From Prorocentrum cordatum (Eukaryota): 64,000 nt of DNA. Below, piece after piece: positions 15,501-59,683 of this stretch. How positions within the stretch are numbered: the first letter of the stretch is position 1; each line of letters begins with the position of its first letter. A program made the translations under genes and the position numbers. Location: contig CAUYUJ010000170.1 in assembly GCA_963575745.1 (NCBI GenBank), positions 372,001-436,000 of the forward strand, read 5' to 3'. The notes under the pieces were generated by a model, which saw only the letters and a program-made list of their open reading frames with translations, was not told the DNA's origin and made no database searches.

Positions 15501-16472
15501 TACGCGTAGGGGAGCTTCCGACGTGAAGTCGCGCGCCTCCATCCCAGCCCAAGTCTTTGGACAGCCGTGCTCGTCAGCAATCTTGTGGTGGTGGGCGAAG
15601 GTTGCCAAGGTACCCTTGTGACGGATGACCTTGGCGAGCTTAGCGTGGAGGTTCTCGAGGTCCGCCAGCTGGCAACCCCACGTCGTGGCGAACTGCGCGC
15701 GAAGCTCTCTGTGCGCTTCCTGCCACGGGAGGCATAGGCCCATCATTGCCTCGAAGATGTCGCCAAAGACCTCGGGGTTTGGGAAAGGCCATAGCGTGGC
15801 CCGGGGCTCACGTAACTGCAGCATCATGACCACCAGAAGCTCTTTAAGTGCGTGTGGGGAGAGCGGCTGTCCGCCGGCACTGATAAGCGCGTCTGTGAGC
15901 TCTGCATCAATCCCCTCGTGCTTGAACAAGGCGCTCAGGTTCTCCATACCTGGGTGAAACCTGTGCCGACGGCACTTGCAGGTCGTAAAGCTCCACGCCG
16001 CTGGAAACTGATGGAGCGTGCCCTGGGGGGTGCAGTGACTTTTCTTCTTGGGGCCCCTGTGACTTTTCTTCTTGGGGGCCCTGTTTGAGCCCACCATGTG
16101 AGGTAGGGGTGGGAGCGACTCGTACGCGACCCCAAACTGCTTGTCGTTCCATGGCGTGCCAAGCCCGAGGAACCAGACGATGGCCGCCCACGTGAGGTTG
16201 TATACCCGGTTGCTCGCGTCGATCCCGACCTCCGGGTCAAAGCACTAGCCCAAATGGCTCCATGCCTTCCTGTCAAGACTGCCTGGCTGCCTGGGCGTGG
16301 CCCCCATTTGCCCTTGGTGGGGGTGTAGTCCAGAGATGGTGTACAGCAGGATGCCCATGAGTGGGTCGTCGACTAGCGCCTGGATGCTGTCCGAGAGGGC
16401 GGCCCCGAGCTTTTCCCACGAGAACTGCTCATCCAATGGTGCTGCGATGCGGTATGTGGATGAGCTCTCCAA
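12600..16472 (-). pseudogene. Decayed C-terminal continuation of the helicase reading frame: possible RNase III-like region, Cys-rich motifs, W/G-rich tail
   Basis: ORF 16245-16472 and ORF 14550-16097 are in the same frame, split by one TAG. Motifs SNRVYNLTWAAIVWFLGLG and VFGDIFEAMMG resemble RNase III SN..LA...LGL and D.FEA..G. Cys pairs CSTC, CDGC, CERC, CDFC follow. Frameshifted protein-like segments continue to ~12.6 kb. Confidence 0.45.
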
Positions 16473-16510
16473 TTTGGCCTTGGCCTTCCTGATGGCGTCG
16501 CCCAGGCCTT

Positions 16511-17927
16511 TTACACTGACGTCCCCGTCATGTGTGGGAGCAGCTGGGATCCACGACTCCAGGTTCTTGATGGGGTGAATCCCTCGTCACAGCGTAGGGA
16601 GGTCCGGTTGCCCAGGCTGTCCTCTTGGAAGCGGATCCATAGCCCAGCCAACCTCCCATATTCCGAGAGCTCCCTGAGGTGCGATCTCGTGGCCGTGCTG
16701 AACATTCCATCCCCGATTATGACAACGTGTGACCTGGCACGCGTGATAGCGACATTGACCCTGTTGGGATTGTCCATGAAACCCCAGTCGTGGAAGTAGT
16801 TGGACCGCGTAGTCAGGTAGATCACGATGTCAGCCGCACCGCCCTGGCTGGAGTCGATGGTGGAGATGCTGCGCCTGCCGTTGGCCACGTGTTTCCCAGC
16901 TACCTGGCATATCCCTGGGAATTGTAGCCCGATCCCATTGGACTGGGAGCTCCATTGCTCAAAGTCCTGTTCGTGTCCTCGCTGGTCCCTGGGGTGGGGA
17001 GGGGGGTCGCCTGGCCCTTTGAACTCGCCTTTGCCATCACCTTTATCCCTGCTCCTAGCCTGCCCGAGGGAGCCGATGATGATGCGACCCGACTGGGGCC
17101 AGCCCCTCTCGAGCACCGCGCACTGAAGCTGGTAACCTACCACGACCAGGACTATGGTCCCTTCTTCCATGGCAGGCATGAGGGCCCTCACCACGTCCAC
17201 CGTTTTTGCGGCCTCTGGGATGTTCGCGTAGCCAGAATGAAGATTGGAGGTGACCACGACTGAGGGGTCTGTCGACCAGGAGAAACCGGTGCCTTTCTAC
17301 AGAGGGTTGCGGTGGGGGTTGAAGGTCCCGTAGTAACGTCTCCATGTCGTCTGTGGTGGTATTGGCCGACTCTGCTAGCGACCGGAGCCTCCCTTCGTCC
17401 CAGGGTCGTACCTGCTGCCACGGTATTCCTTCCACGATAGGCTTCTGCGCTAGAGCATTGGTGAGCCCAGTCCGAATAGCCTTGTTGTAGAAGGCCACGC
17501 TCGGCCACGAGAGGAGGAGAGGATGCATACGGTAGCAAAGGTTCAGCTGTACCACAGCTGGGCTGTCCCCGCCTAGTGCATTGTACAGCTTGTCAAATAT
17601 GGAGAGGCAAAGTCCCCTGTCAGCCGCCTTCCTGGAGAGAACCGTGGGGGGTAGCTGCCTGGGGTCGCCAACCAGTAGTAGGTGCCCACCTGACCGTATG
17701 ACATTGACGAGGGACATTGCCGCCATGAGTTCGTGGGCATGTCCCGCCTCGTCGATGATGAACAAAGCTGTTGGTACTAGCTTGAGCGACTCAGCCGCCT
17801 CGTGGGTAGCGATAACCAGCTTGGCGTCGCTTAGTAGCTCAGAGCGGAAGGACTGGAGCTCCTTGGATGGTCCGATCTGTTTGGGCGGGCGATCATGGGT
17901 CCTCTGAAAGTGTCCCATTGGGGTCAA
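16511..17927 (-). pseudogene. Upf1/DNA2-like superfamily 1 helicase (AAA_11/AAA_12-type), N-terminally truncated and frameshifted
   Basis: Motifs in canonical order: LVIAT, IIDEAG, LLLVGDPRQLPPTV, SIFDKL, QLNLCYRMHP..LSWPSVAFY, YAN..EA, ISTIDSSQG, GFMDNPNRVNVAITRAR..VVIIGD. No Walker A motif; frameshift near 17260. Confidence 0.9.
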
Positions 17928-18793
17928 GGACGCAATCTCCGGGGATACTTTTTTTTACAGCCGCAGGCGAAAGCGCCGACGGCGGGCGGTCACGGTCGGG
18001 CTGCGGCCGCGACCAGATTCCCGGGCGCGCGCGGGGGCCGCGGATCAGGCGGCGGGGGGGGGCAGCGACCCAGGGCGTCTGAGAAGCCAGGCGAGCGTGC
18101 AATCCAGGGAGTCTGCAAGGAACGCCCAGGAAACGTGCAAGTGGCAAACCCAGGGCTGTCTACCACCGAGAAATTAAAACGCCGCCAAAATGGCGCGTGG
18201 ACGCTCCCGTCGTGATCGTAACAAAACGACAGTTGGTAGGGAACGAAATCCAAGCAGGAAAGCCAATCCAGGGAGTCTGACGGGTATGAGCAGACAAAGC
18301 TGGAGACGCGGTCCTGCAGGAAGGTACTCTGACAGCGCCAGCGAACCGTCGCAGCATCAGAGGCACATCCGTGGAAGGAGCTGCAGCCCCGCGGGCAGGT
18401 AAAGATCTTCCACTGGGGTGCGCCTGAGCCCAGTGGCCCAACGGTCAGGACTGGACCCAGCAGGAGCGGCGGCCACTCGGTGGGGACAAGTCGCTCAGAG
18501 CGTGCCGTTCAATGTGGCTCGCGCCAAAGCCCACACGCCCAATCGTGGAGGCGCGCGAAGGACGAGCGCCGTATACCCAAAGAGCAATCTCCGGGGATAT
18601 GCGAAGCGTGAAGAATTAGTACTATGTGCCTCTGTTGGAGACGCACGCGACCGGCCAAAACATATAGCACGACACGTTGTAGTATATTGACTCCCGAGCG
18701 CTAGGGCCAGAAAGCGCCCGCCCCTCAGCTGACAGTGTCAGACTTGCGAGCGTGCGCATCGCCCTCGCGAGGCCAACGCACAGAATTTCAGCC

Positions 18794-18823
18794 TCAGTCG
18801 TTTGGGCGGTGACGACCGCTCTC
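18794..18823 (-). CDS. Putative terminal exon/remainder of the membrane-protein gene (ESGRHRPND-stop)
   Basis: Removing the TSD-flanked insertion joins ...VPDE (21010) in frame to GAG AGC GGT CGT CAC CGC CCA AAC GAC TGA. Confidence 0.65.
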   Translation of the reverse strand, partial: ESGRHRPND

Positions 18824-18831
18824 CTCGCCGG

Positions 18832-19357
18832 CGGGTGGCGCCCCGTCGCCCGCGGCAGCGCCGCCGTGGCGCAAAGGGGCGTCACGGGCTGAGGGGGAGG
18901 GGCGAGGGGGCAGAACGTGACGCCCCCCGGCGCCCCCCCCCCGCCGTGTGGCTCCGGCACCACAGACTGTGGTACCGGACGCACTGCGGCAGTGCCGTGG
19001 ATGCACTGGGGGGGCGGGGGGGCGCTGGTTGCGTTATGGAGAGGGGGAGGGAGGGGGAGGAGCGTTGCTATGAGGGTGGCGAGCGTCACGGTAATGGGGG
19101 GGCGTTACGTTAGGGGGTGGGGCCTAACGCGCGTTATGGCCAGGGGGGCGGAACACTTACTCAGACGGTAGGACCTCAAGAATATGTTTAACTTGCCTGG
19201 GGATGTCCTCCTGCCCCCTCCCTTCTCCCACCTACTCCTGCCTCCTCCTTCTCCTCCCGCCTGCTCCTCCTCCTCCTGCCTCCTCTTCCTCTTGCCTCCT
19301 CCATCACCTCCTTCTCCTCCTCCTCCTCCTCCTTCTCCTCCTCCTCCTCCTCCTCCT

Positions 19358-19388
<31 letters not shown>

Positions 19389-20629
19389 TCCTCCTCCTCC
19401 TCCTCCACCACCACCTCCTCTCCTCCTCCTCCCCCTCCCTCCTCCCCCTCCCCCTCCCCCTCCCCTCCCCCTCCCCCTCCCCCTCCCCCTCCCCCCCCCC
19501 TCCCCCTCCTCCTCCTCCTCCCCTCCTCCTCCTTCTCCTCCTCCTCCTCCGCCTCCTCCTCCTGCCTCCTCCTCCTCCTCCTCCCCTCGCCCTCATCCTC
19601 CTCTCCCTCACACTCCTCCGCCTCCTCCTCCTCATCCTCCTCGTCCTCCTCCTCGTCTCCATCTTCCTCCCCCCTCCCTCCTCCTTCTTCTCCTCCTCCT
19701 CCTCCTTCTCCTCCTGCCTCCTCCTGGCGCCGCCTGGGGACTCTTGCGGCCTCCTGGAGCCTTCTCGGCCTCCCGGGACCTGGTGGGGCCTCCTAGGGCA
19801 TTCCTCCTCCTCCTCCTACACCACCTCCTCGTCCTCCTCCTCCTCCTCCTCATCGTCATGTTTCCCCTCTGCCTCTCCTCCTCCTCCTCCTCCTCCTCCT
19901 CCTCCTCCTCCTCCTCCTCCTCCTCCTCCTCCTCCTCCTCCTCCTCCTCCTCCTCCTCCCGTGAGGTGCGGGAGGCCGATGACCCGCCTCGGATTCGAAC
20001 ATGAAGTGCGGGCCCTATAGAGAGGGGGCTCCCGCCGGAGACTTCCTCGCACTTCACTCACAGACGAGGCTCCCGCCTCATATTTCCTCCATATTCAGGC
20101 CTCGGGAGCCGAAAAATGACGACGGTTACAGGAGGCCGATGACCCGCCTCGAATTCGAACATGAAGTGCGGGCCCTATAGGGAGAGGGGGCTCCCGCCTG
20201 AGACTTCCTCGCAATCCACTCGCAGAAGAGGCTCCCGCCATATGCTTCCTCCGTATTCAGGCTTCCGGAGTCCAAAAGTGACGACGGTTACAGGAGGCCG
20301 ATGACCCGCCTCGAATTCGAACACGAAGTGCGGGCCCCATAGGGAGGGGGCTCCCGCCGGAGACTTCCTCGCAATTCACTCACAGACGAGCCTCCCGCCT
20401 GAGACTTCCTCCGATGATGAGGACGATGGTGATGGGTGGTGGTGATGATGGTGATGGTGACGATGGTGATGGTGACGATGGTGGCGGGTGATGGTGACGA
20501 TGGTGATTGGTGATAGTGATGGTGTTCACTCACAGACGAGGCTCCCGCCCGAGACCTCCTCAAGCTGAGTATGCGGTGTGTGAGTGAGTGTGTGCGATAA
20601 TGACGACGGTGACGGTGGTGATGTGATAA

Positions 20630-20701
<72 letters not shown>

Positions 20702-20954
20702 GTGATGATGCGTAGTAGTTGTGAATGAGTGAGTGAGCCACTCAAGATAAGTGAGTGAGTGTGAGTGAGTGAATGAGAGTGGTCGGGCTAATGCGACTGA
20801 GTGTGTAAGTGATGCGGTGCTGATGCTGTGATGATGATGTGAGTGGGAAAGTGTGCAAGCGAGAAGAAAGAGGGTGTTCCCTCCATCCTGCTCCTGCGCG
20901 GGGTGTCCAGAGAAAACAAGAACCCCATTGGGGATGTGGAAAAAAGCAAAAAAA

Positions 20955-21002
<48 letters not shown>
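18832..21002 (+). mobile_element. Non-autonomous composite retroelement with poly(A) tail and 15-bp TSD
   Basis: ~60-nt poly(A) at 20940-21002. TSD cgctctcctcg(c/t)cgg at 18817-18831 and 21003-21017. Body is a GC-rich head, (CCT)n, ~161-bp tandem repeats, (GAT)n/(GAGT)n and a 3' motif cgcggggtgtccagagaaaacaagaaccccattggggatgtgg. No coding capacity seen. Confidence 0.85.
19968..20560 (+). repeat. ~161-bp tandem repeat (about 3 units) inside the composite retroelement
   Basis: ggaggccgatgacccgcctcg at 19971, 20131 and 20293. Confidence 0.9.
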
Positions 21003-21003
<1 letters not shown>

Positions 21004-21009
21004 GCTCTC

Positions 21010-21837
21010 CTCGTCGGGCACGCCGTCGCCGGCGCGGGCCTGCTGCCCGGCGCGAGGCTTGCGGAGCAGCTGGCTGCGAAGCTGGCTCTTCACGCTGCCC
21101 ACGGCGCCGGCGACGTGGCTGCTCGCGGCCGCGGCGCCCGCAGACACGGCTCCACCCGCCACCGCCGCGCCCCTGCCGACCTGGGTCGCGACCGCGCCGC
21201 TCGCGCTAGCAACGGCCGAGCCGCTCGCGCTGGCCACAGCGTCGAAGGACGCCTGCGGTGGGGTCGGCGGCTTCTTCGTGGTCTTCGACTTGGCGGCCGC
21301 CTCACTCTCGCCACTGGCCTTCAGGCCGGCCATCCCTCTTGGGGCCGCCGCGTACTCGTCCGGGCTGTCGAGCGCTTTTAGCGCCTTCTTGTCTCCCGTG
21401 AGACGGTACCATTGCCTCAGGAGATCTGTCGTCGTTGTGATCTCGCCGTGGCACTTCACCTGTAACTTGTCATCCGCTGAGTCGAAGAGGGCAACGAGCA
21501 CGAAATCTGTGAAGGTGATTTTGGAAAGCTCTCTCACATAGATAAACTTTGCGATCATAGCGGCGATGCTGGTTGGATTCGCCATCGCCTTGTAGTCGAA
21601 GCTCTTTATCAGGCTCGACGCAGAACCCGCAGAGATCAAGAAAAATACAACGACGCTAGCACAGCACGCCACGCTCGCTACCAGGAGCAAGGTCTGGTGC
21701 AACTGTACGTTGTCCTTCTTCGCCATGAGCTTCTTCGCCTTCTCGCTCTCCGACATGTTGGCTCCATGCTGTATGTCCATGATCTTGCTGGCACAGAAGA
21801 GGACGACTCCGAAATTGACGACAGGGTTGGCAACTAC
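21010..21837 (-). CDS. Large 3' exon of a multi-pass membrane protein gene
   Basis: Acceptor tcgtctcgtcgctcag|GTA at 21838/21837. 276 open codons with hydrophobic helices (VVANPVVNFGVVLFC; TLLLVASVACCASVVVFFLISA; SIAAMIAKFIYV) and an Ala-rich tail. Confidence 0.75.
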
Positions 21838-21995
21838 CTGAGCGACGAGACGAAGCGGGCCCTGCGCGAGCAGGGACAGCGACCCCGCGCCACGGCTGAC
21901 GCGGGCAACGGGGCGCGGCACGTCGCGTGGAGAAGGGGGCCTCCACGCGCGACCTGGCGCGGGAAGCCTGCGCACCAGTGTTGGCGCAGCCGACG

Positions 21996-22095
21996 NNNNN
22001 NNNNNNNNNNNNNNNNNNNNNNNNNNNNNNNNNNNNNNNNNNNNNNNNNNNNNNNNNNNNNNNNNNNNNNNNNNNNNNNNNNNNNNNNNNNNNNN
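21996..22095. other. Assembly gap (100 N)
   Basis: Run of N. May hide further exons and makes contiguity across it uncertain. Confidence 1.
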
Positions 22096-41182: not shown

Positions 41183-42815
41183 CCCACGCCTCAAGGGGAG
41201 TCCCCATCCCGCCCGCGGCCCGCGCGGGGCCTGTCCTCAGGCCCTCCGCCGTGGAGACGAGCTGGTCACCGAAATCGTCGTGGTGGAAGCTGGCGACGCC
41301 GGGCGACGAGCTAGCGACGGCAGCGCCGTCATGAAGAAGAGGCCCAGCAACGGGAACAGGGCCAGCAGGAGGGTCGACGCTGTCGCCGCCCGCAGGGGGA
41401 GCATCACCAGCACCTGCAAGAACCAGGGCAGAAAGCTCCGCATGTTGGTCATCAGGATCTCCTGGGTCCTCAGGAGAAGCAGCAGATGCAATAACCACAG
41501 ACTGGGCCGCCGCGAAGTCGTTGTCCTCATCTTCTTCCACTTCCAATAGAAGAGCAAATACGTCCTCATCGTTCTCCATAGATATCGATGTGCCATTGTC
41601 TGCAGAAGCCGCAACCGCAGGCGGCGAGAAGGAAGCGGGAGCCACATCATCGAGAGGTACGTCAGCACCATGAACTGCACAGCCAGAGGGTAGGGCGTCC
41701 GCATCGACAACATCATCAGGTTGCCCGTGACAGGGGAGAGTCTGGGCAGGTAGCGGCGCTGCTCCCATAGGGTTGGTCGGCCAAGAGACGCGGACGCAAT
41801 GGGTGAGAAGCGCCCACGCGTTGCGAGAAGCGGGCGAGAAGCGCCCACCCCTTGCGCCCACGCAGTTTACACGCGGGCGAGAAGCGCCCACCCCTTGCGT
41901 CCCCAGCTGAGAAGGCTGAACAGGGCTTGACCCAGATCGGTTGTCGCCCTCGCTGTCCGACCCAGCATCTCGAGGTCAAGACCGCCGCCTTCGTCGTCAC
42001 CCAGTACACTACCAGGGTTCTGAAGCATCCAGGTAACCAGGCTCCGCTGTTCGTCCGACAAGTCGAAGTTCTCGCACAGGCAGCCCACCGCGTGCGCCAT
42101 CTGTCGGTCTGAGAGCGGCTCTGGAGGATTCCGCGGCCGAGCGAGCGACGAACAGGGCCTCACGAACAGCAGCACGCCAGCGCCGAAGACCATTGAGGGA
42201 ATGTGCACTCGCTGTAGCCGTAGCCGACGAGGTAGCAGCCGCCAAAGCCCCCGAAGGGGGGGCTCCCGAAGCACGACTTGACATCGTCCGTCTCGCAACA
42301 CCACCAACTGACCCATCTGGATAGATGACTCCAAGCCCGTGCGCCGCCATCGTCTCGTTAAAGCCGTCGTCGGAGCTGCTGGAGGAGATTGTCTCATGCG
42401 GTTCCGCAGGGGAAAGAAGAGCAGCGGGTGGTAGCCTAGAAGAGGAGGCCGTAGGGTCAGACGGCTCGCCTGTGTCCACCCTCGAGCGACGAACGGCAGC
42501 CTGCACTTGAGCTTCGAATTCCTCGCCTGTCAAGATCGGCTCAAAATGATGTGAATATTCATCCGTCGTCATCTCGGTGTCGTTGCCAGCAGTAGCCTCC
42601 ATGTGCTCCATGTCCAGGTCTGCGGGCTCAGGGTAGCCGACGGTGTCGACGCTGCGGTTGCCCTCGTCGGGCAGGTACGGAGCGTCGCCGTCGTCGCAGT
42701 CGCCCTCCACAGGCACAAGGCGCGGCAGGAGGCGCGAGTGCGTGTTGAGCGACAACGGAGGCCCAAACGGAAATACCTGGCGCATTCGAAGGAGGTCCGC
42801 CTTTTTAAGCTTCAT
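41183..42815 (-). pseudogene. Possible ORF3 or long ORF2 tail of the LINE (acidic, low complexity, frameshifted)
   Basis: ORF 42009-42815 (MKLKKADLLRMRQ...) and ORF 40893-41891 are co-oriented with the LINE and run straight into the terminal (CCT)n. No domain recognised. Confidence 0.35.
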
Positions 42816-42966
42816 TCATACGCGTTAAGTCGGCGGCCCCGCCCCGTTGCCAGGGTGCACAGCAAAGTAAACCTGATGATGAGGCCAGCCACGTATGAGT
42901 ATATGTTCGCCCGCACAATTGCCTCAATGCCAACAGCCGCGAGGATTCGACCGTGCCCCATGCTGT

Positions 42967-45900
42967 TTAGAAGTGATGGTATAGCCGAGCTCTCCCCACC
43001 GTCGAACTGTGCCACGCGGCATGGCACATGCTGGATCCAAGAATGCGCCTCTCCTGCACCGTCCCTTCAGGGGTAGCAAACAGCCCACAGAAAGCCCAGA
43101 TTGGAAACACGCGGCTGGAAAACTTAGTACCCCAGAACATCCAGTCGTCGAAACCGCTGCAGGTGACGGGTTCCAAGAAGAGCGAGGGGCCCCAGTTCCG
43201 CGCCCAAGACTCCAGCAGAACTGCAAATCGCGCCAAACGCCGAAGCATGATAGGACCGACTCCAGCCGGCGGCATAGCAGAAAACCTGACCTCGCCAATG
43301 GCATCCGGATAACGCACGCGATGTGGTAGAGTGTCGTGAAGGAAACGGCGTCCGATTGGCAACATACCGAGAAGATCATCCCACCAAGCATGCTCGATCG
43401 ATGGTAGTTCGAAACAAATGACAGGAAGCGGGTCGGATGGCTCTGGAGGGCGGCGCGTGATCCTGGCGCGCCCAGCCGAAGGCCAAGCCAGCGCACGTGT
43501 CCGCACTGCGCCTCTCAGCGCTGTGAGCAACTGATAGGGAAGCACGTGGTGCAGATGCCGAAGACCATGATATGCTATAGTGGCAAGATGCGTGTTCATC
43601 ACATCCTCGCCGAAGCTGCCGCGAAGACCCCATCGATCAAGAACGTGTGAAGGTAAGTATCGTCGCCCTCCTGACTTAACCATGGCAAGACCCCATGCGA
43701 GCCCACGACATTCCCAATAGTGTGCCATGTCATCCCGCTCGCCACAGCACCCAAACAGGCACGGCTTGACACCAGACACGGATGCAATGCGAGCCGGGGT
43801 TAACCAACCGCCACAAAACGCTCGAATAATACAGGTGGCCCAAGCTACGGGGCATGTCGTCATCTGCTTGCGCAGGGCGTCCCAATCCAGCGCGTTAATC
43901 TCGTTGCCGAGCTGCGGATACCATTTAGTCCACCGTTTGACGAAGGTGGTGGCCAAAGGCGATGCGCAGGTGGACTGCAAGGGCTGATGTGCGCTTATAT
44001 ACTCAGTTGGTGAAGCCTGGTGCGCAATCCGCTGGGCACGCTTTTCGGCTGAGTCATCCTCGAACATGGCAAGATGAACGGCAACAACACCTGATGACGC
44101 TGAGACCTTACAAGCATCGGACAGAAACTCGACGAAAGACGGTACTTGCCAGAAAGAAGGCGAAAGTCCACCACAAAGATCTGCCAAGACGCGCTGCATG
44201 ATGCAGGATGCGCTGCAATCTGCCACCTCGATGATGCCCTTTTCAGGCATGCCAGATACGATGCGTGATCAGGATGCGCTGCAATCCCAGATCGAATAAG
44301 CGCGGACTTCGCTGAGATGGCCAGGCTGCGAAGGCGAGGCCCACCACAAGCACCAAGCGCATGATAGTCGACTTGCCGCAAGGCACCACCAGGGAAGCGC
44401 AGCAGCTTCACGAGCACATGTATGTCCTGACTCTTCAGCTTCTCGGGGAGCGGTAGGAATTGTGCCACAGAGCCCATGATGGGCTCGTAGTGTAGTTGAT
44501 GCCATTCAAGCTCGCAGGCGCCGCAGAGGCGGCAAGGGCACTGACTCGAGCGCAGTATTTACCCCATGGCGTCGACCACGACTGAGGGAGCGATGCTGCT
44601 GGACCCATCCATATCCCCAGGCACAGCAAAGTGGCCTCCACTTTGAAGGATGACCAGTCCGACAGCTGTTGTTGCAGCAAGACATGCACACGCTGCTGCA
44701 GCTCGGCCGAGAATGGACCTGCCAGTGGAACAATCACACACTTAGCTGGTTTGAGCTTCAAGCTGGCCAGCTTGGCTGCCACCGCCATCGCACGCGATAA
44801 GAGTTTCAGATCGATCATATCGAACAGCACTCCCCCGATATCATCAGCACACGCTCGAAAGACTCCTCGCTGTCGGAGTTCGATCCCCTGCCTGATGCCC
44901 TCCAGAATCGGCGAGGTAGCTGCGGCGAACAAGCTCCCAGATAAGGCGCAGCCTCGAACGATGCCGCACCAGATACGGAAGAGGACCTCAGTGACGCCCG
45001 CAGTTCTGCCCAGGGCAGTGGCAATCGCATAGAGAGAGCGTATCGCCTCTAGTAGAGCTGTCGGAAGCCGAAGATGTTCAAGAATGATGAAGAGGAAACT
45101 CTGGCTGAGGCTGGGGAACGCTTGCCCCAAAGCCAGAGCCACGAGAAACGGCATCCGCTCCAGCGGGTTGGGCATCAGCGAGGCGGCTCTGGCTACCACG
45201 TCGGGCTCCAGAATGTTTGAAGCGTCGGCCCGAGATAAAACCACGCTGCGCTGCTGATGTAGAGCACTGCGCGATCGGGGAGAAGGCGGCGTTGAAGGTG
45301 GCCGAGATAACATGCATGTCCGTATTGCGTAACCCGAGCGTGCGCACCGTGTCGGGGGACCTGTTGACCCCTCTGTCATCGTCGTCACCTGTTTGACAGC
45401 CTTTGGGAAGAAAAGCTCGAGGAGTGTCGCCGCACTGTGCGAATAAACGTTGCCCGCCCATCATCCGCACACAGGAGAACCAGAGGACCTTCGCGCCCAC
45501 CTCGTGGGCGGCCCAGGCGGCGCACGGCAGCCCGCCGACGCCAGGAGAGGATCGCGACGGCGCAAATTTGATAAGCACACGCTGCAGCATCTCAAGAGAC
45601 GGAGGAGCAAGCCCATCAAACGCACAAGGGTGCACGAACCGTTCAGCCCATCGCCTTGTGCGTGCAGGAAAAGCTTGGGGAGCGGCCGAATTTGGTGCCC
45701 AATAGCGCGCGAGCGCGCCCAGCTTCTCGAAGGGGTCGGCGTAGGCGACGCCGTCGACCTCGATGAAACGCAAGGCTAGCTTCTTCGAGAAAGGAACCCA
45801 AAGCCGAGCTTTCCGTTGCACCGCAGCAACCGTGCCAGCAGATGGACGCTGACGACCTTTCCCGTGAACTGCATCATGTTGTAATCGCTCCAATTCCAGC

Positions 45901-47160
45901 TCAGCGGACCGAAGTTGAGTAGCGCCCGCCCAAGCCTGAAAAGCAGCATCGTCCGTGATGATGACCTGGGTGTCTTGCACCTGCAAACACGATCGCGCAA
46001 CTTTAGATGCATGGCATAACTTCTGAGCAAGAGTAGTGTTCTGTCGCCAGGCGCATCGCGCGGCTTGACGAACAAATACCAATTGGGCTTCCAGGGAGTC
46101 ACTTTCGTTGACCAAGATACTCTGCGTTGTGTCGAACGCTGCTGCTTGAACCAAGTCCTTATAACGGAATAATTGCCTCGGTGGTGACATGCCCAAGAAG
46201 AACTGCCCATCGTTGTCAAGGAGCACGCCTAGGCGCCGCCCAAGTTCAGGCCGTTTATAGATATGTGCAGGGGCGGGCTTGCGATAGCAGCCATCCAGAT
46301 CTCGATGCCGGATATGAACACGAATCGCCGCGCGATCCGAGAGCTCCTCGGCGTGCATCTCTTCGGGCGCGGAGACAAACGACACGGAGTGCTGGAGTTG
46401 GCATGACATCCAATTCGGTTCAGATAGCCAGAGCCGGTCGATTTGCGACATGGCCTTCGCGCCCTGGCAGTAGTGGGTCGGATCCTCAGACGCCATCTCT
46501 AACATCCGATGAAACACCGAAGACCAAAGCCTGGCATGGGAGCGAGAGTCATTCGTAACGTTGCGTGGCTTTGCTGCCGTCGGTTGCGCAAGGTGGAGCG
46601 CGTCGTGGGCCGCGAAGTTGAGGTCGCCACATACAACAACTAGTCGGGCACGATGATCGAGAGAAGCCCAATCTATATCAGCCTGAATTGCTCTGACCAC
46701 CTTCTGAACTTCTGCCGCCGAGAGCCCATGATTGCGAATATTGGAATGACGAATCTCAGCACACGCGCCCACCAAAATTGCCCGCAGGACTCTGCCCCTG
46801 ACGAGCGGCGTGGACGAAGAAGCACTTGAGGAAGGCAAAGAAAGCGGCACGATCGTAGCAACACCGCCTCGGCCACGACCTGTCTCATCATCCCCGTCAT
46901 GAACAGATGCGAAAGAACCAAAGACCGTAGCTGATGGTGCGACTCTGCGCATGCAAACTTCCAGCTCACCCTGGGTCTGGTGTACTTCTTGGAAGGCGAC
47001 GACGGAAGACGAGATGCCAATCAGGTCCAGGTAGGAGGCCTTGCTCATCGAGCGTGCGCCACGGAACTGCAGCAACGCTCGAGCATTCCACGACAAAAAC
47101 GTGAGCTCCTGACAACGCGGCGCCAAGCCGCCGTCAACCTTGTGGTAGAAGATGTCATCG
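42967..47160 (-). pseudogene. LINE ORF2: APE endonuclease + reverse transcriptase + CCHC zinc knuckle, frameshifted
   Basis: APE: FLSWNARAL, FQEVH, GGVATI, CGDLNF, SQIDR, LSDR. RT: FLPKG, RTLGLRNTD, QRGFISGR, QAFPSL, GIVRGCALSGSLF, ACADDIG, LKPAKC, LCLGIWMG. Knuckle: CLFGCCGERDDMAHYWEC. Confidence 0.92.
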
Positions 47161-47166
47161 TACTTG

Positions 47167-48349
47167 CTAAAGAGACCATTCAGGCTCCACGCTGGGCTTG
47201 AGGATGTGGCCAATCGACTTGTTGATACCAGCACGCTTCCAGCCACGAGAGGTGAGCGCGGCATCATGAAAGTAGCAGAGCGCGGGGTCGCGGCCAGGCT
47301 GAAGTTCGAATCGCAGTACAGGATTCCAGTTTTCAGATAACCAACCATTCTGCCGATCGAGGAAGAACTTGCACTGCGGGTGCTCCTCGCGGAGCGCGCT
47401 CGTGACCTTCTTGCCAGCGATCTCGAGCTTGATCTGGTACGGCGACTTATCTGGCCCAGTGTGCAGTTGCGTTGAACCGCCAGAGGCCAGCTGGCACAGG
47501 GAAACGCATCCACTGGCCCTTGCCAAGACGTAGCGCTGCCAAGGCCTGGGAGACTCGCTTGCAGGCGAAGACGACGGCGACTGTGAACTGGATGACGAAA
47601 ATGCGGTCCTGTTCATCTCCTTCGATCTTGAAGCCTTCGATCTCAGCGTCCTGGAGCCATTTCTCGACAGAAGTGACCACATCCTTCGTACAAACCATCG
47701 TGGGCGCGACGGCTTTGAGGATGGTGCCGTCAATGATGCGCTGGAAGCCAATGCCAGCGGGCTTGGGAGGCTGCGGGACTTTGTTGGCCATGGCGAACTC
47801 CTTCCGCATTTCCTCCAGAGAGCTCTGCATGTCGGCAAACTGCCTGGCGAGGGTCTCGGCGCGAGCGTCCAGATCGTCGATCTTGGCAGCCACGGTGTCC
47901 AACTGGCGCTGGATGCGCTGCTCGAGGTCGTTGAGTTCCGATCGCAGTTGAGCCTCCATTTCGTTCTTGCAGTTCCCATGGACGGCCTTGATCGCGTTCT
48001 CGAGTGTGCGGACGGCAGGCATAATTGGGTCCACAGCCTTGCCAGCAGCGTCGGCCGCGGAGGTAGCCGCGATAGCGGCCAGGTCGTCCTTGAGGGTCTT
48101 GAACTCCTGCGGGAGGCGCTTGCCGAGCTGCTCGGCAATGAGGCCATTGATGTGGGCACCCCAGTCATCGTCGGCCATGTCGTATGCTTCATCTTCAACG
48201 TCGGAGATGGTACGGCTCGACCTCGAGCGATCATCATCCACCCGACCGCCAACAGGAACAGCATCATCACCACCACCCCGCACCGCTGCTGGGCGCCCCG
48301 CTGCAAGAGTCTTCTTCTTGCGCTTGGGAGTTCCGCCATTCGGGGGCAT
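47167..48349 (-). pseudogene. LINE ORF1-like protein (basic N-terminus, coiled coil; frameshift near 47490)
   Basis: MPPNGGTPKRKKK, then the heptad-rich ELNDLEQRIQRQLDTVAAKIDDLDARAETLARQFADMQSSLEEM. C-terminus continues in another frame (GPDKSPYQIKLEIAGKK...EPEWSL-stop) immediately before ORF2. Confidence 0.75.
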
Positions 48350-48459
48350 GCGCGGGCCGCGCGCGCCGAGGGCAAAGTGGCTGCACGCGTTGCTGGATCT
48401 GGCCGCGGATCAGCGGTGTCCCTTTTGCCTGGAGGCTGAACAGCCCCCCAGGTGGACAT

Positions 48460-48481
48460 CTTGAGCCAAAATGGCTACGGA
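48460..48481 (-). other. Complete 22-nt dinoflagellate spliced leader at the LINE 5' end
   Basis: Plus strand CTTGAGCCAAAATGGCTACGGA is the reverse complement of TCCGTAGCCATTTTGGCTCAAG (DinoSL, DCCGTAGCCATTTTGGCTCAAG). Followed by ATG, not by the GT of an SL-RNA intron. Confidence 0.97.
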
Positions 48482-51710: not shown

Positions 51711-53982
51711 ATTTTTTTCCTGCGCGCGGGGGGCAACATGATTTGACAACGATGTCCGTAACACCCATGGTGCGCAGAACAAGGTGTGTGATCATGCGAC
51801 AATGCGCGAGCTCTAAACGAAAACGGCAGAAATTGAAACAGACCGAGGCTTGCCAAACAACTTTCTAGCGAGCAAGTCCAGAATTTGAAACAACGGGAAC
51901 CGCACCAACCGACCGCTGTCGTCACACGACTACCGTGTCGTGCCCATGCGAGCTGCGGAAGTTGAGGGCAATCATGGCAATCATTACAGTCGGACTCTCC
52001 TACCCCGGCCCGACAGCACCCGTCCCCGAGCCCTCCCCACCTCCCTGCCAACTGTGCTCTGCTCTGCCGCCGAATGCTCGCCGTGCGAGCTCTGGAGAGC
52101 GGCCGAAAGCCGGCTACACAGATTGCCACGGCGGGCGTCAGAAAAAAACTCTACCTTCCGCGGGCTGCGAGACAAAAGCGTGTCCTGAACTGTACACATA
52201 CATAGATCGCATGCTGTAAGCCGCGGTTTAAATCGAAGTCGCTTCGAACGCGCCCGAACAAGCGATCCTGATTCGAAAATCTAAAAAATGTGAAGGCACG
52301 TGCACTTACACGATACAACCGCAATAGACAACTTCACGTGCGATCAACATATTAGCCGGATGGCATTTAAACTCTTGTGCCAGCCACCGTCCCGCCCGAG
52401 GTCAAAATATGTTTCGCCTGAGGCACGGTGCATGGGCGCATGGCCAATCAAAGCCAGACCCGATCTGATTTAGAGGCACCTGCGAAGCTAGGGCCCCCTG
52501 TATCCACAATAGCGGTGACGGTGACGCTTCATACCCGACGCGCTTCGACGTATGTGGCCTCGCCATGTCCGACGGTACTCAGGTCGAGATGCCCATCCAG
52601 ACACCACACGTAAAACCCCCGCACCCCCCGACAACACCCCAGCCTATCTCCCCATATCTCCCCCTTCAGTTCCCCCGTCATATCTCGTTGTTACCTAGCA
52701 GACTGTGAGCCCATTTGGCCACCGCTTCCTGCGGAGAGGACGCTCCCATCCTGGCCTGCCGCATCAGATGGCAGGCAACACCAGACCTCTAAGAAGTGGT
52801 GCAATCTATACCATCGCAACGGCAAAGGGGATGCCGCTGCAACCTGGGCTTGAGCATTTGTGACGCCCACAGCGGCGCGCCGCTCGTTGCGCTCCACCAC
52901 ACTATCGCTACACATGTGAAATCAGCCGCTAGTTGCAAGATGTCCAGCAGACGCTGTCATCTTCTGACAGCTGGGCAGACTCGCCAGCAACTCGAATAGC
53001 AACTTGGCATGTCCGGCGAGAGATTTGGGCGGATTGAAACCCCGCTCGCAAATCGATCCCTCGATAATGTATGATACAGGGCAAGCAAAAGTACAAATGT
53101 GGTACACCTTGCACAACGGATGCGGAGGATGGGGGAGCGGAGAGGGTCCGCTAACCTCGAAGAACACCGCTGCATTCGCCTTCAAGGCAAACGCACTGGG
53201 ATGCGGAAGGCTGTGCAACGCAACCCGTGCGCATAGCCCACACGAGCTCTACGAATCCTCGACCCTGGCGGCTCCCCCCACTGCGCAGCACCGCCGGACG
53301 ATCAGTGAAATCCGACCTGCACGTGCTGCCGCGCCCAGGAACTGTACGAATCGCGCCACTGGGCAAGCAAGGCTTGCGGGTCCTTCGACAGCTCTTGTGG
53401 GGCCCGGGAGCTGGCCGAACTTGGACAAGTGCTCGAACTCGTCGACACCTGCCGCGAAAAACTCGCCGGATAATCATCATCGAATTCGCCCCTGCCGGCA
53501 CGCTTGGCGGATGATGTCTTGCCTGCATTACGGCTGGGATTGCTGGCGCAGCTGGAACACGTCCTGCTGCAGGCGCTACCAGCGCTGCTGCCGCTGAGGC
53601 GTCCGCTGGCCGCCGATTGCGTGATCCGCGCAACGCCATCTTTCGACACCCTCCACCTGGTGTCCACGGTGACGGACAAGCCCCGTCGGCTTGCGAGGCT
53701 GGGGTTCGCAGTGCGCCCACACGACTCGCACAAGCGGCCATGCAGCATCGTGAGGCGCGTCTCCATCTGTCCCGTGATGTCTGTGCTGAAATCTCTGGCG
53801 AGTGGGGTCACGTCGGATGACTCTTTCACGAAATTCGCCATTCTTCCAAGCCGCGGTACCAGGAGCCCGAGCTCAGCTGTGGACTTGAAACTGAAGCGCC
53901 GGCACGGCTGCGAAGTCGGCATATCGGAGATCCTCTGCGAAAAAGTGCGCCAGGCCGAAACTTGAGCCAAAATGGCTACGGA
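51711..53982 (-). mobile_element. SL-capped retrocopy (~2.27 kb) of an unidentified transcript, inserted in (CAT)n
   Basis: Complete SL at 53961-53982, short A7 at the 3' end (51712-51718), and plus-strand (GAT)n on both sides (51587-51710 and 53981-54115). Only broken ORFs (MPTSQPCRRF.../MANFVKESSD...). Confidence 0.8.
53961..53982 (-). other. Complete 22-nt dinoflagellate spliced leader (second copy)
   Basis: CTTGAGCCAAAATGGCTACGGA on the plus strand. Followed on the minus strand by TTTCGG, not GT. Confidence 0.97.
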
Positions 53983-58119: not shown

Positions 58120-59495
58120 ATGACGGGCGTCATGGGGGGGGGAAGGGCGGGAGGGGGGTATGACGTGACGCCCCCCCCCCGCCGTGTGGCTCCAGCACCA
58201 CAGCCGCGCCCGCGCGCGCGACGCGACGAGCGACGAGCGACGAGCGACGGCGACGACGCGAGCAGCATGTAAGTGGCGATCTGCCATTGCGCCTGTGTCC
58301 ACCACAACGCTCGCGTAGCGTGCACCACACCGCGCGCGTGCACCACAGCGCCTGCGTACACTGCAACAGCCGTGTGCAACGCACCGCCCGTGTATACCAC
58401 AATACTTGGGAGCACCACAGCGCCGGTGTACATACACCGCAGCAGCCATGTGCAACACAACGCTTGTGTACACCACAGTGCGTGCGTGCACCGCAGCGCC
58501 TGTGCACGCCACAGCGCCTGTCTACACCACAGCATGCGCGTGCAACGCAACGCTGGTGTACACTACAGTGCCTGCGTGCATAGGACAGGTAGAAGGAGCA
58601 TGTACGTCAGGATGTGATGCGGGCAACTAAACGCCACGCCAGGAAAAAAACTGAGAATCGAATGCGACATGTTTACCTCCCCCCTCCTCCTCCACCTCCT
58701 CCTCCTCCTCCTCGTCCTCTTTTTCCTCCTTCTTACCCCCTGTCGTGCGGCTTCGCGTTGCAACGCACGTGCGCATCTCAGCGTGCACCGCAGAATGGTC
58801 GATTGAATCGGTCCACTTGGTTCTCGGACGGCCAGTTTAGCTGGAGCCTCCTGGACGCAAATGGGAGTTAGCGTGATGCGGGCAGACTCGGGGGGACTCG
58901 TAGATTCCAGCGGCGCTCCTTTTTCCATGAGAATTTGTTTTCCATTGTTTTCTCTGGAATCCACACGCGCTCCATTTTGTCACAAGGATTCCTTCTGAAA
59001 TTCTATGCACAACAATGGTGCTGTGATGTACACGGCTGATGTGGTGCACACAGGCGCCGTGGCGTACACAGGCACTGCAATGCACGCAGGCATTGTGGTG
59101 TACACTGGTGCTGTGTTGCGCACGGCTGATATGGTGTACGGAGGCGCTGTGGTGTACACAGGAGCTGCTGTGCCCGCAGGCACGGTGGCACAAACTGACG
59201 CTGTGTTGCACGCGGCTGCTGTGGTGTACATCGGCGGCGTGGTGTGCACAAGCGCTGTGGTGCACGCGGGCACTGTGATGTACACAGGCGTTGTGGTGCA
59301 TATCGCCACCTACATGTACGTGTTACCCGTCCTCCGTCATTCCTAACCATTCCCAAACGCCGCCGGCGCGAAACGTGACGTCATCGACCCCCTCCCCCCC
59401 CAGATGATTGCCGTCATCGGCCCGGACTTAACAGCCGCGTCCGCGCGCACGACGACGATGAGCAACGAGCGACGAAACACGAGCGACGACGACGA

Positions 59496-59532
<37 letters not shown>

Positions 59533-59683
59533 CGCCTGCGGACCAGACACCTATGCGGACTCCTACGCGGACACCTGCGCGGATCCCAATGCGCACGGCG
59601 GCAGTGGCCGGAGCGCACTGGGGGGGGGGGAGCGTTACGTCATAGGGGGGGGGAGGGGGGGCGGGGGCCATGACGCCCGTCAT
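58120..59683. mobile_element. Foldback-like element: outer inverted repeats and inverted arrays of an 18-bp unit
   Basis: atgacgggcgtcatgg (58120) is inverted at 59668-59683. The array of tgcaccacagcgcctgtg-like units (58265-58580) faces its reverse complement (59010-59318), including the end catgtaagtggcgat / atcgccacctacatg. Confidence 0.75.

What the first reader, a model, noticed from the sequence alone, without database searches (positions are those of the whole stretch)
18794..21017. Poly(A) retro-insertion inside the last codons of a gene could be spliced out perfectly as a new GA-AG intron
Seen: the exon ORF runs without a stop into poly(T). The 15-mer after the poly(A) (cgctctcctcgtcgg, 21003-21017) recurs with one mismatch at 18817-18831. 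Deleting 2186 bp restores ...VPDEESGRHRPND-stop. Because the TSD duplicates an AG|GA site, the gene strand reads GAC GAG|GAGAGCGTTTT.......GGCGAG|GAG AGC GGT, an exact in-frame GA-AG intron (21009-18824). Established: dinoflagellates use GA and GC donors and favour AG|G junctions. Inference: possible intron gain caught in the act through TPRT target-site duplication, distinct from DNA-transposon introners. The alternative is that the insertion replaced the C-terminus with a poly-Phe read-through ending at 20788.
Basis: partly seen in the sequence, partly recalled or inferred. Interest (0 to 1): 0.8.

Follow-up and report, generated by a model that had tools for sequence, protein, structure and literature searches.

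The report
Young retro-insertion in a gene's tail
A recently copied-and-pasted repeat element with a long poly(A) tail landed eight codons before the end of an expressed dinoflagellate gene; on paper it could be spliced out exactly, but the RNA data at hand do not show this, so it is best read as an ordinary gene-tail insertion.

Summary
The sequence facts hold. A 2,171-bp repeat-rich element ending in 47 A's (18832-21002, + strand) is bracketed by a 15-bp direct repeat (14 of 15 identical). It lies antisense in the open frame of a minus-strand exon, 8 codons before a stop.

The exon is real. It encodes the conserved C-terminal domain of an uncharacterised protein family, and spliced RNA contigs of three runs cover it without a mismatch.

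The splicing idea is not supported:
- No listed contig of the four runs laid joins 21010 to 18823.
- Two contigs run unspliced across the proposed acceptor into the insert.
- The exon contigs carry 30-54 further letters that the tool's repeat mask hides and that produced no listed joint.

AGG[A/C/T] occurs in 138 of 821 15-mers of this exon, so splice sites carried by such a duplication are a one-in-six coincidence.

Both halves of the idea are already published: both splice sites taken from an AGGH duplication (Polarella introner-like elements), and introners derived from non-LTR retrotransposons (Amoebophrya).

Verdict: a young target-primed retro-insertion in a gene's 3' end. Intron birth is possible on paper but not shown.

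The parts
18832..21002 (+). Inserted element, 2,171 bp. It has a G-rich head, microsatellites, a 162-bp tandem repeat, a unique tail and a poly(A). It is antisense to the gene.
   Evidence: Bounded by the 15-bp direct repeat and ending in poly(A). No second copy in the window.
18817..18831 (+). Left copy of the target-site duplication (C at 18828).
21003..21017 (+). Right copy of the target-site duplication (T at 21014), directly after the poly(A).
20940..21002 (+). A-rich 3' tail; pure A47 at 20956-21002.
20782..20939 (+). Unique 3' tail of the element. The part 20889-20937 belongs to a repeat family seen in many contigs.
   Evidence: pieces at 20889-20927 and 20892-20937 with 3-4 other letters lie inside other expressed contigs of X1, X2 and X8. 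Summed depth in the 20888-21074 bin of DNA run X5 is 5782.
19206..19959 (+). (TCC)n microsatellite, about 248 units; reads (GGA)n on the gene strand.
19971..20412 (+). 162-bp tandem repeat, 2.8 copies, 89 % matches.
   Evidence: Very many contigs of DNA run X5 lie on it (table 2).
20415..20781 (+). (GATGGT)n, (ATG)n and (AGTG)n simple repeats, with one extra partial repeat unit at 20525-20561.
21004..21837 (-). Coding exon of the host gene: the conserved C-terminal domain followed by a low-complexity Ala/Ser/Gly tail. The acceptor AG is at 21839-21838.
   Evidence: RNA contigs 21014-21840 without a mismatch in X1, X2 and X8 leave the genome at 21840; the same onward letters are shown for X2 and X8. 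DNA piece X5 21786-21936 runs on. 21 homologs at E<=1e-3; alignment A1.
18794..18816 (-). Presumed original last codons (GRHRPND) and stop (18794-18796), now cut off from the exon.
   Evidence: Inference from the duplication; not confirmed by orthologs.
18824..21009 (-).
   Evidence: The only exact-excision register with G[A/C/T]...AG. No RNA joint listed.
20788..21003 (-). Read-through extension of the ORF (poly-Phe and onward), with its stop at 20788-20790.
18667..18965 (.). Stretch covered by low-depth contigs that follow the genome across the left junction 18831/18832. Both contigs start at 18667, which may be a transcript end.
   Evidence: table 8: X1 record 3 (18667-18942) and X2 record 11 (18667-18965), no other letters. 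X2's contig then goes on for 30 letters unlike the window.

Best explanation
This is a young insertion made by target-primed reverse transcription, the non-LTR or LINE-driven kind. A 2.17-kb, 5'-incomplete-looking, repeat-rich RNA with a long poly(A) tail was copied into the antisense strand of the last coding stretch of a dinoflagellate gene, 8 codons before its stop. Staggered nicks left a 15-bp target-site duplication.

The host gene is real and expressed. It encodes the conserved C-terminal domain of an uncharacterised protein family followed by a non-conserved low-complexity tail.

The AG|GA inside the duplication, which would allow an exact GA-AG excision, is most likely a by-product of a Glu-Glu-Ser coding stretch (GAG GAG AGC), not a working splice pair. 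The main mRNA seen in public RNA runs does not join 21010 to 18823. It leaves the visible sequence inside the duplication or U-tract zone and continues into something that is not on the unmasked 16400-21013. So the insertion has cut off or replaced the extreme C-terminus and 3' UTR of this copy, or the mRNA comes from another copy. A low-level RNA still runs unspliced over the left junction and begins or ends near 18667.

Shown: the insertion anatomy, the significance of the duplication, the exon's expression and its 5' splice boundary, and the unspliced left junction. Inferred: the mechanism (target-primed reverse transcription), the young age, and that the exact intron is not the main fate.
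For: Anatomy:
- A47 tail, a 14/15 direct repeat of 15 bp spaced 2186 bp apart, and the only such homopolymer in the window.
- The repeat is not chance: 0.03 expected, and 0 of 100 shuffles gave 2 or more.

Retro-element activity in the same window:
- A LINE-like element with an AP-endonuclease ORF (45081-47612, PF03372, E 3.6e-07).
- A reverse-transcriptase ORF (44438-45460, PF00078, E 1.3e-06, 28.8 bits against a cut-off of 29.6).
- That element is headed by a perfect spliced-leader relic at 48460-48480.
- The element's tail (20889-20937) and its 162-bp repeat match very many contigs of DNA run X5 and several expressed contigs.

Host gene:
- 21 homologs at E<=1e-3, best 4.1e-15. Residues 2-165 of the query align to the C-terminal part of 600-840-aa proteins.
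- Six invariant columns fall in a shared C-terminal motif.
- RNA contigs 21014-21840 carry no mismatch in X1, X2 and X8 (two studies). They leave the genome at a CAG|G acceptor where DNA run X5 runs on.

Against exact splicing as the main fate:
- No joint between 18823 and 21010 appears among the 15 listed joints. The tool keeps the best supported, and 0 joints were dropped at masks.
- Contigs X1 18667-18942 and X2 18667-18965 bridge the proposed acceptor and the left junction with more than 100 letters on each side.
- Base rate: 138 of 821 15-mers of this exon contain AGG[A/C/T].
Against: - The decisive letters were not seen. The exon contigs carry 30 (X1), 54 (X2) and 30 (X8) letters beyond 21014. 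The tool masks repeats; by arithmetic, 971 masked letters minus 672, 63 and 160 leaves 76, which equals 20938-21013. It also dropped 20 loose ends at the masks.
- Exactly 30 letters beyond the mismatched base 21014 in two runs is what a de Bruijn contig at k=31 would show if a spliced or empty form shared its preceding 30-mer with the left-junction form. The k value for Logan is recalled, not from a call.
- All runs were contigs, which drop rare variants, so a minor spliced isoform is not excluded.
- 18 further joints were not shown.
- X1 and X2 are of unrecorded kind. I take them as RNA because their contigs are spliced at 21840.
- The one mismatch in the duplication sits oddly with a perfectly pure A47 tail.
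- No whole genome was available, so the copy number of the gene and of the element family is unknown.
Confidence: 0.62

Rival explanations
1. The insertion is removed from the pre-mRNA as an exact 2,186-nt GA-AG intron (21009-18824), with both splice sites supplied by the AG|GA in the two copies of the duplication. This restores ...VPDEESGRHRPND*: a new intron born from a single retro-insertion.
For: - Exactly one of 16 exact-excision registers has GA...AG followed by G.
- Dinoflagellates use GA and GC donors, GA is enriched among recently gained introns, and GH after the 3' site is conserved (10.1101/2020.10.14.339549, passages).
- The exon contigs of X1 and X8 stop exactly 30 letters beyond the mismatched base 21014. 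A k=31 graph (recalled) would do this if the spliced form and the left-junction form shared the preceding 30-mer.
- The gene is well expressed although it carries the insertion.
Against: - No joint between 18823 and 21010 is listed in any of the four runs, although joints with sides of only 20-27 letters and depth of about 4 are listed. X2's 54 letters should have been placed easily.
- X1 and X2 each have one unbroken contig from 18667 through 18828 into the insert. That contig would be split at the shared 30-mer if a spliced form were present. Their mean word depth is 4.5-4.9, against 47-65 for the exon contig of the same run. The tool warns that depth is a poor measure.
- AGG[A/C/T] in a 15-mer of this exon is a 17 % event.
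- Contigs show presence, not absence, so a minor isoform stays possible.
Confidence: 0.1
2. The exon never ended at the stop 18794. The old gene had a donor at the edge of the duplication (AGCG|GT, G at 18817 = 21003 and GT at 18816-18815) and a further 3' exon outside 16400-21995. The element landed at the exon-intron boundary. It now simply lengthens an existing intron, and a nearby donor is used instead, for example the new AGC|GT at 21004/21003 or one of the GA sites.
For: - The exon contigs continue for 30-54 letters, and no listed joint places these on the unmasked stretch.
- The pre-insertion sequence reads ...GAGAGCG|GTCGTC, and the insertion creates ...GAGAGC|GTTTTT.
- Everything from 21002 down to 16400 looks like repeat DNA in run X5.
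Against: - The frame closes naturally 8 codons after the duplication.
- A low-depth RNA contig follows the genome from 18965 to 18667 and starts at the same base in two runs, as an old 3' UTR end would.
- The new GT donor would shift the frame by one base.
- No downstream exon was identified. Homolog tails are not conserved, so they cannot guide the search.
Confidence: 0.15
3. The mRNA reads through into the element, or is spliced into its (GGA)n tract, so this copy makes a protein with a new junk C-terminus: poly-Phe ending at 20788, or a Glu/Gly/Arg-rich tail.
For: - The ORF is open through the poly(T) to 20788.
- The hidden letters lie in or next to masked simple sequence. On the gene strand, (GGA)n at 19206-19959 offers many AG|G acceptors.
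Against: - A k=31 contig (recalled k) running into U47 should carry 41 letters beyond 21014, not 30 or 54. This is inference.
- The unique tail 20782-20888 received no locus-specific contig in X1, X2 or X8.
Confidence: 0.1
4. Assembly artefact: the scaffold was wrongly joined at a homopolymer, so the gene and the element are not really adjacent.
For: - A 100-N gap lies 1 kb away at 21996-22095.
- The right junction is hidden by the mask.
- X2's contig leaves the window sequence after 18965.
Against: - A 14/15 direct repeat flanking exactly the poly(A) end is not expected from a misjoin.
- The left junction is confirmed by independent contigs of X1 and X2 without a mismatch.
Confidence: 0.03

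Closest known systems
Introner-like elements of Polarella glacialis, classes 13 and 14 (Roy et al., bioRxiv 10.1101/2020.10.14.339549; passages read)
   Same: Both splice sites can be recruited from a target-site duplication containing AGGH, so excision is exact. GA donors are enriched among young introns. A G follows the 3' splice site.
   Different: Those are short DNA-transposon-like elements with 3-8-nt duplications, present in hundreds of copies and known to be spliced. Here there is one 2.2-kb poly(A) element with a 15-bp duplication and no evidence of splicing.
Introners derived from non-LTR retrotransposons, e.g. in Amoebophrya sp. A120 (Gozashti et al. 2025, PMC12130899; section 6 read; Dataset S2 not seen)
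   Same: A retro-element of the non-LTR kind inside a dinoflagellate gene, proposed to act as an intron.
   Different: Those are families defined by many intron copies in annotated genes. Family membership, copy number in introns and splicing could not be shown here. The paper's text as read gives no detail on where their splice sites come from.
LINE-driven insertions of L1, SINE or processed RNAs into exons (general knowledge, recalled)
   Same: A 3' poly(A), a 7-20-bp target-site duplication, either orientation, and truncation or alteration of the host mRNA.
   Different: The nick site here (...GAGAGCG|G on the bottom strand) is not T-rich as for L1. The inserted RNA is mostly satellite and microsatellite sequence, and its source element is unknown.
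Retroposed, spliced-leader-bearing cDNAs of dinoflagellates (Slamovits and Keeling 2008; recalled, not read)
   Same: Evidence of rampant retroposition in dinoflagellate genomes. Two perfect leader relics lie in this same window.
   Different: The insert in question has no leader relic at its 5' end (18832 onward) but does have a long poly(A). The two leader-bearing copies have no A or T run of 12 or more anywhere in the window.

Membership tests
Retro-insertion by target-primed reverse transcription (non-LTR / LINE-mobilised) | 3' poly(A) or A-rich tail at one end of the insert | tested here: met
   A47 at 20956-21002, A-rich from 20940.
Retro-insertion by target-primed reverse transcription (non-LTR / LINE-mobilised) | Direct target-site duplication of about 7-20 bp flanking the insert exactly | tested here: met
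   15 bp, 14 of 15 identical, abutting the poly(A). 0.03 expected by chance in the window.
Retro-insertion by target-primed reverse transcription (non-LTR / LINE-mobilised) | Belongs to a multi-copy family with a shared 3' end | tested here: inconclusive
   Tail piece 20889-20937 and the 162-bp repeat match many contigs in runs X1, X2, X5 and X8. There is no second copy in the window and no genome to search.
Retro-insertion by target-primed reverse transcription (non-LTR / LINE-mobilised) | An autonomous partner encoding endonuclease and reverse transcriptase in the genome | tested here: inconclusive
   A LINE-like element with AP-endonuclease and RT ORFs lies at 44438-47612 on the minus strand. 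It shares no 3' sequence with the insert.
Introner / introner-like element | The element is removed from mRNA as a spliceosomal intron | tested here: inconclusive
   No joint between 21010 and 18823 is listed in four runs, and contigs bridge the acceptor unspliced. The data are contigs only, and the junction zone 20938-21013 is masked.
Introner / introner-like element | Many near-identical copies that each form an intron in different genes | not testable with these tools
   No whole genome or annotation is held.
Introner / introner-like element | Splice sites supplied by the element ends and/or the duplication so that excision is exact | tested here: met
   Met on sequence only: register 8 of 16 gives GA...AG|G. 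The base rate is 138 of 821 15-mers.
Host gene: uncharacterised protein family (no Pfam entry) | Conserved C-terminal domain with the shared F-T-D ... F-D-x-A-D-D ... W motif | tested here: met
   Invariant T110, D111, F118, D122, D123 and W143 in 9 aligned sequences. Best E-value 4.1e-15. No Pfam family for the exon product or for 7 homologs.

The most novel reading that the evidence does not exclude
A minority of transcripts do excise the element exactly as a GA-AG intron, using both splice sites from the 15-bp duplication made by target-primed reverse transcription. That would be a single-event snapshot of intron birth from a LINE-mobilised RNA in a free-living dinoflagellate. The unexplained stop of two contigs exactly 30 letters past the mismatched base would be its trace.
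Probability: 0.1. Interest if true: 0.6.

Novelty: new member of a known kind. Interest (0 to 1): 0.25.

Why it matters
If the exact excision were real, it would show at a single locus how a retro-element insertion becomes an intron with no sequence evolution at all. That would extend the duplication-borne AGGH mechanism known for DNA-type introner-like elements to LINE-driven insertions.

As things stand, it is one more transposable-element insertion in a gene tail of a repeat-rich dinoflagellate genome. It is useful mainly in two ways:
- as a well-defined, datable example of target-primed retroposition (A47 tail, 15-bp duplication) in this lineage;
- as a concrete locus where a cheap RT-PCR could test nascent intronisation.

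Tried and rejected
**Searches that found nothing**
- Whole genome: none is held, so there was no family census and no paralog or empty-site search.
- Protein word searches of the exon product: near lengths over the whole protein, near lengths over residues 1-165, and shorter lengths over residues 120-278. All found nothing, so no near-identical product or ortholog was available to test the ESGRHRPND ending. The distant homologs have unrelated tails.
- A 28-mer from the exon end searched in metagenome, genome and viral contigs: 0 hits each.
- Protein-guided locus search in metagenomes: 469 pattern matches, none confirmed.
- Rfam on the whole window: 0.
- Earlier findings of this scan: nothing on this genome or element.
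- Loose-end letters beyond 21840 and 18866 are not in the window. The upstream exon must lie in the N gap or off the window.

**Run search**
- My query included the simple repeats. Every listed run that held any of the stretch (X1-X20) had only 0.10-0.21 of the words, and no run held half. Most rows may owe their share to microsatellite words.

- 20701-20887 has depth 0 in X1, X2 and X8.
- 18644-18830 has depth 0 in X8.
- 16400-17895 has depth 0 in X1, X2 and X8.

**No listed joint**
- The absence of a listed 18823/21010 joint is absence in contigs, not proof.

**Ideas about the hidden 30/54/30 letters, rejected on arithmetic alone (k=31 for Logan is recalled)**
- An mRNA poly(A) tail added at 21015-21013 would give 29 or 31 letters, and never 54.
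- Unbroken read-through into U47 would give 41.
- The sequence 18774/18798-18827 would give a listed joint and would split contigs X1 record 3 and X2 record 11.

**Other**
- The X8 contig ending at 18866 and the X1 joint 18071-19038 look like GC-rich or GA-rich chance pieces.
Full report
**1. Observation**

The stretch 18600-21300 was read directly.
- On the + strand an A-rich tail starts at 20940 and is pure A47 from 20956 to 21002. This is the only A or T run of 12 or more in the whole window.
- The 15 bases that follow (21003-21017) recur at 18817-18831 with one mismatch (T at 21014, C at 18828), 2186 bp upstream on the same strand (family D12).
- With up to one mismatch these are the only two matches in 64 kb on both strands. 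Shuffles expect 0.03, and 0 of 100 shuffles reached two. With up to two mismatches the expectation is 0.46.
- On the minus strand an ORF runs from 22227 through ...GVPDEES into poly-Phe and stops at 20788. The frame that ends at the stop 18794-18796 reads ...GEESGRHRPND* in the same phase relative to the repeat.
- I listed all 16 exact-excision registers. Only one has G[A/C/T] at the start and AG at the end: the exon ends at 21010, the intron is 21009->18824 (GA...AG), and the next exon starts with G at 18823.

**2. What the insert is**

The 2,171 bp between the repeats (18832-21002) consist of these parts:
- a G-rich head, parts of which resemble 58125-58203 and 59592-59661 at 74-76 %;
- a (TCC)n tract of about 750 bp;
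- 2.8 copies of a 162-bp unit;
- (GATGGT)n, (ATG)n and (AGTG)n tracts;
- a unique 158-bp tail;
- the poly(A).

There is no second copy in the window and no spliced-leader relic at its 5' end.

When contigs of four public runs were laid on 16400-21995:
- The 162-bp repeat and the tail piece 20889-20937 attracted very large numbers of contigs of run X5 (recorded as "DNA?").
- The same tail piece, with 3-4 differences and degenerate A-rich continuations, sits inside several expressed contigs of X1, X2 and X8.

This fits a multi-copy family of poly(A)-tailed retroposons in which the window's copy, with its long pure tail, is a young member.

The window is dinoflagellate and shows other retroposition:
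- Two perfect spliced-leader relics lie at 48460-48480 and 53961-53981 on the minus strand.
- The first heads a LINE-like element with an AP-endonuclease ORF and a reverse-transcriptase ORF just under Pfam's cut-off.

A poly(A) tail plus a 15-bp duplication is the signature of target-primed reverse transcription. I infer that mechanism; it is not shown.

**3. The host gene**

- The exon product has no Pfam family and no close relative in three word-based searches.
- A full HMMER scan of 1.84 billion representatives gave 21 proteins at E<=1e-3 (best 4.1e-15). Most are 600-840 aa, and residues 2-165 of the query align to their C-terminal parts.
- An alignment of nine sequences has six invariant columns in a shared motif. 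Seven homologs have no Pfam family.
- After the conserved domain the homologs carry unrelated low-complexity tails. They therefore cannot test whether ...ESGRHRPND is the ancestral ending.
- The exon is expressed. Contigs of X1 (1112 letters), X2 (1132) and X8 (172 and 1221; a poly(A) RNA library of another study) lie on 21014-21840 without a single difference.
- The contigs leave the genome at 21840; the 251-255 onward letters shown for X2 and X8 are the same. There the gene strand reads ...CAG|G. A 151-letter piece of DNA run X5 runs on unbroken over 21786-21936.
- The upstream exon is not in the window and may lie in the N gap at 21996-22095.

**4. The splicing test**

Only one run search and one read-laying run were allowed, and all four runs were Logan contigs.

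- (a) No joint between 18823 and 21010 is among the 15 listed joints. 18 more were not shown, but the tool keeps the best supported, and the listed ones go down to depth of about 4 with sides of 20-27 letters. The tool states that 0 joints were dropped at repeats.
- (b) X1 record 3 (18667-18942) and X2 record 11 (18667-18965) follow the genome without a difference across the proposed acceptor and the left junction, with more than 100 letters on each side. The unspliced left junction therefore exists in those samples.
- (c) The exon contigs carry 30, 54 and 30 letters beyond 21014, and no listed joint places them on the unmasked stretch.

Results that blunt this:
- The tool masks repeats. It names three masked regions and "1 more", and reports 971 masked letters in all. 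Subtracting the three named regions (672, 63 and 160) leaves 76, which equals 20938-21013. That interval is exactly where neighbouring records end (20937) and begin (21014). The apparent cut at 21014 is therefore an artefact, and the loose ends there were dropped.
- Contigs miss rare isoforms.
In two runs the contig stops exactly 30 letters beyond the mismatched base. A k=31 graph (recalled value) would do this if a spliced or empty form shared the preceding 30-mer with the left-junction form. I could not reconcile that with (a) and (b), and I leave it unexplained.

Simple arithmetic also argues against two other readings: an mRNA poly(A) tail added there (29 or 31 letters, never 54), and plain read-through into U47 (41 letters).

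**5. Base rate and prior work**

- AGG[A/C/T] occurs in 138 of 821 15-mers of this exon on the gene strand. About one random 15-bp duplication in six would offer an exact G[A/C/T]-AG excision, so the motif alone is weak evidence.
- Recruitment of both splice sites from an AGGH duplication, enrichment of GA donors among young introns, and a conserved GH after the 3' site are described for Polarella and Symbiodinium introner-like elements (10.1101/2020.10.14.339549, passages read).
- Introners derived from non-LTR retrotransposons, about 5 % of classified families, are reported, including in the dinoflagellate Amoebophrya (PMC12130899, abstract and section 6 read; its datasets were not seen).
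- A search for papers combining intron gain, non-LTR retrotransposon, target-site duplication and splice site returned 3 papers, none describing this exact case.

**6. Verdict**

The best reading (confidence about 0.6) is a young target-primed retro-insertion that cut off the last eight codons and the 3' UTR of this gene copy. The exact GA-AG intron is a coincidental possibility, not the main fate.

Rivals:
- exact splicing (0.10);
- insertion at an old exon-intron boundary, with a 3' exon elsewhere (0.15);
- read-through or splicing into the element's (GGA)n tract (0.10);
- misassembly (0.03).

Printing the hidden contig letters, or one RT-PCR, would decide between them.

Noticed in passing
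window 48460-48480 (-) and 53961-53981 (-): Two perfect dinoflagellate spliced-leader relics lie inside genomic DNA. Each is directly preceded on its strand by a long microsatellite, (CCT)n and (CAT)n respectively. The first is followed directly by an ATG and the second by an ATG about 40 nt downstream. They look like retroposed, leader-capped transcripts whose 5' ends abut simple repeats.
   Followed up: partly
window 42000-48480 (-): A LINE-like element headed by the first leader relic. It has an AP-endonuclease ORF at 45081-47612 (PF03372, E 3.6e-07) and a reverse-transcriptase ORF at 44438-45460 (PF00078, E 1.3e-06, just under the curated cut-off). It has no long poly(A) at its 3' end.
   Followed up: partly
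window 16514-17954 (-): The C-terminal half of an Upf1/DNA2-like helicase (AAA_11 and AAA_12 domains) in two overlapping frames. No Walker A motif was found between 12 and 26 kb. DNA run X5 covers it with many contigs at 90-95 % identity, so it may be a fragment of a repeated, perhaps transposon-borne, helicase gene.
   Followed up: partly
window 19971-20412: In run X5 the 162-bp tandem repeat unit inside the insert draws summed contig depths of 16,000-69,000, against about 0-2 on the neighbouring exon. That points to a satellite-like, very high-copy family.
   Followed up: no
window 21137-21155: In the poly(A) RNA run X8 the exon is split into two contigs here, with depth 42 upstream and 8.8 downstream. 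Most transcripts of that sample seem to have a different 3' tail from about 21137 on. This could be allelic or paralogous variation in the Ala/Ser/Gly-rich tail, which also holds a 24-nt tandem duplication at 21189-21236.
   Followed up: no
window 21996-22095: A 100-N assembly gap lies just upstream of the exon. The upstream exon sequence carried by the RNA contigs (at least 517 letters in X8) is nowhere in the window.
   Followed up: partly
window 18965/18966: X2's contig, which is otherwise identical to the window, and five X5 contigs leave the window sequence exactly after 18965. The head of the insert (about 18877-18965, also similar to 58125-58203) is therefore a repeat module with a sharp boundary.
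   Followed up: no
window 26.8-29.6 kb, 33.8-40.3 kb, 57.6-58.3 kb, 60.9-63 kb: Kilobase-scale trinucleotide and other simple-repeat tracts with extreme strand skew. They produce long spurious ORFs of poly-Ser, poly-Leu, poly-Pro, poly-Glu and poly-Arg.
   Followed up: no
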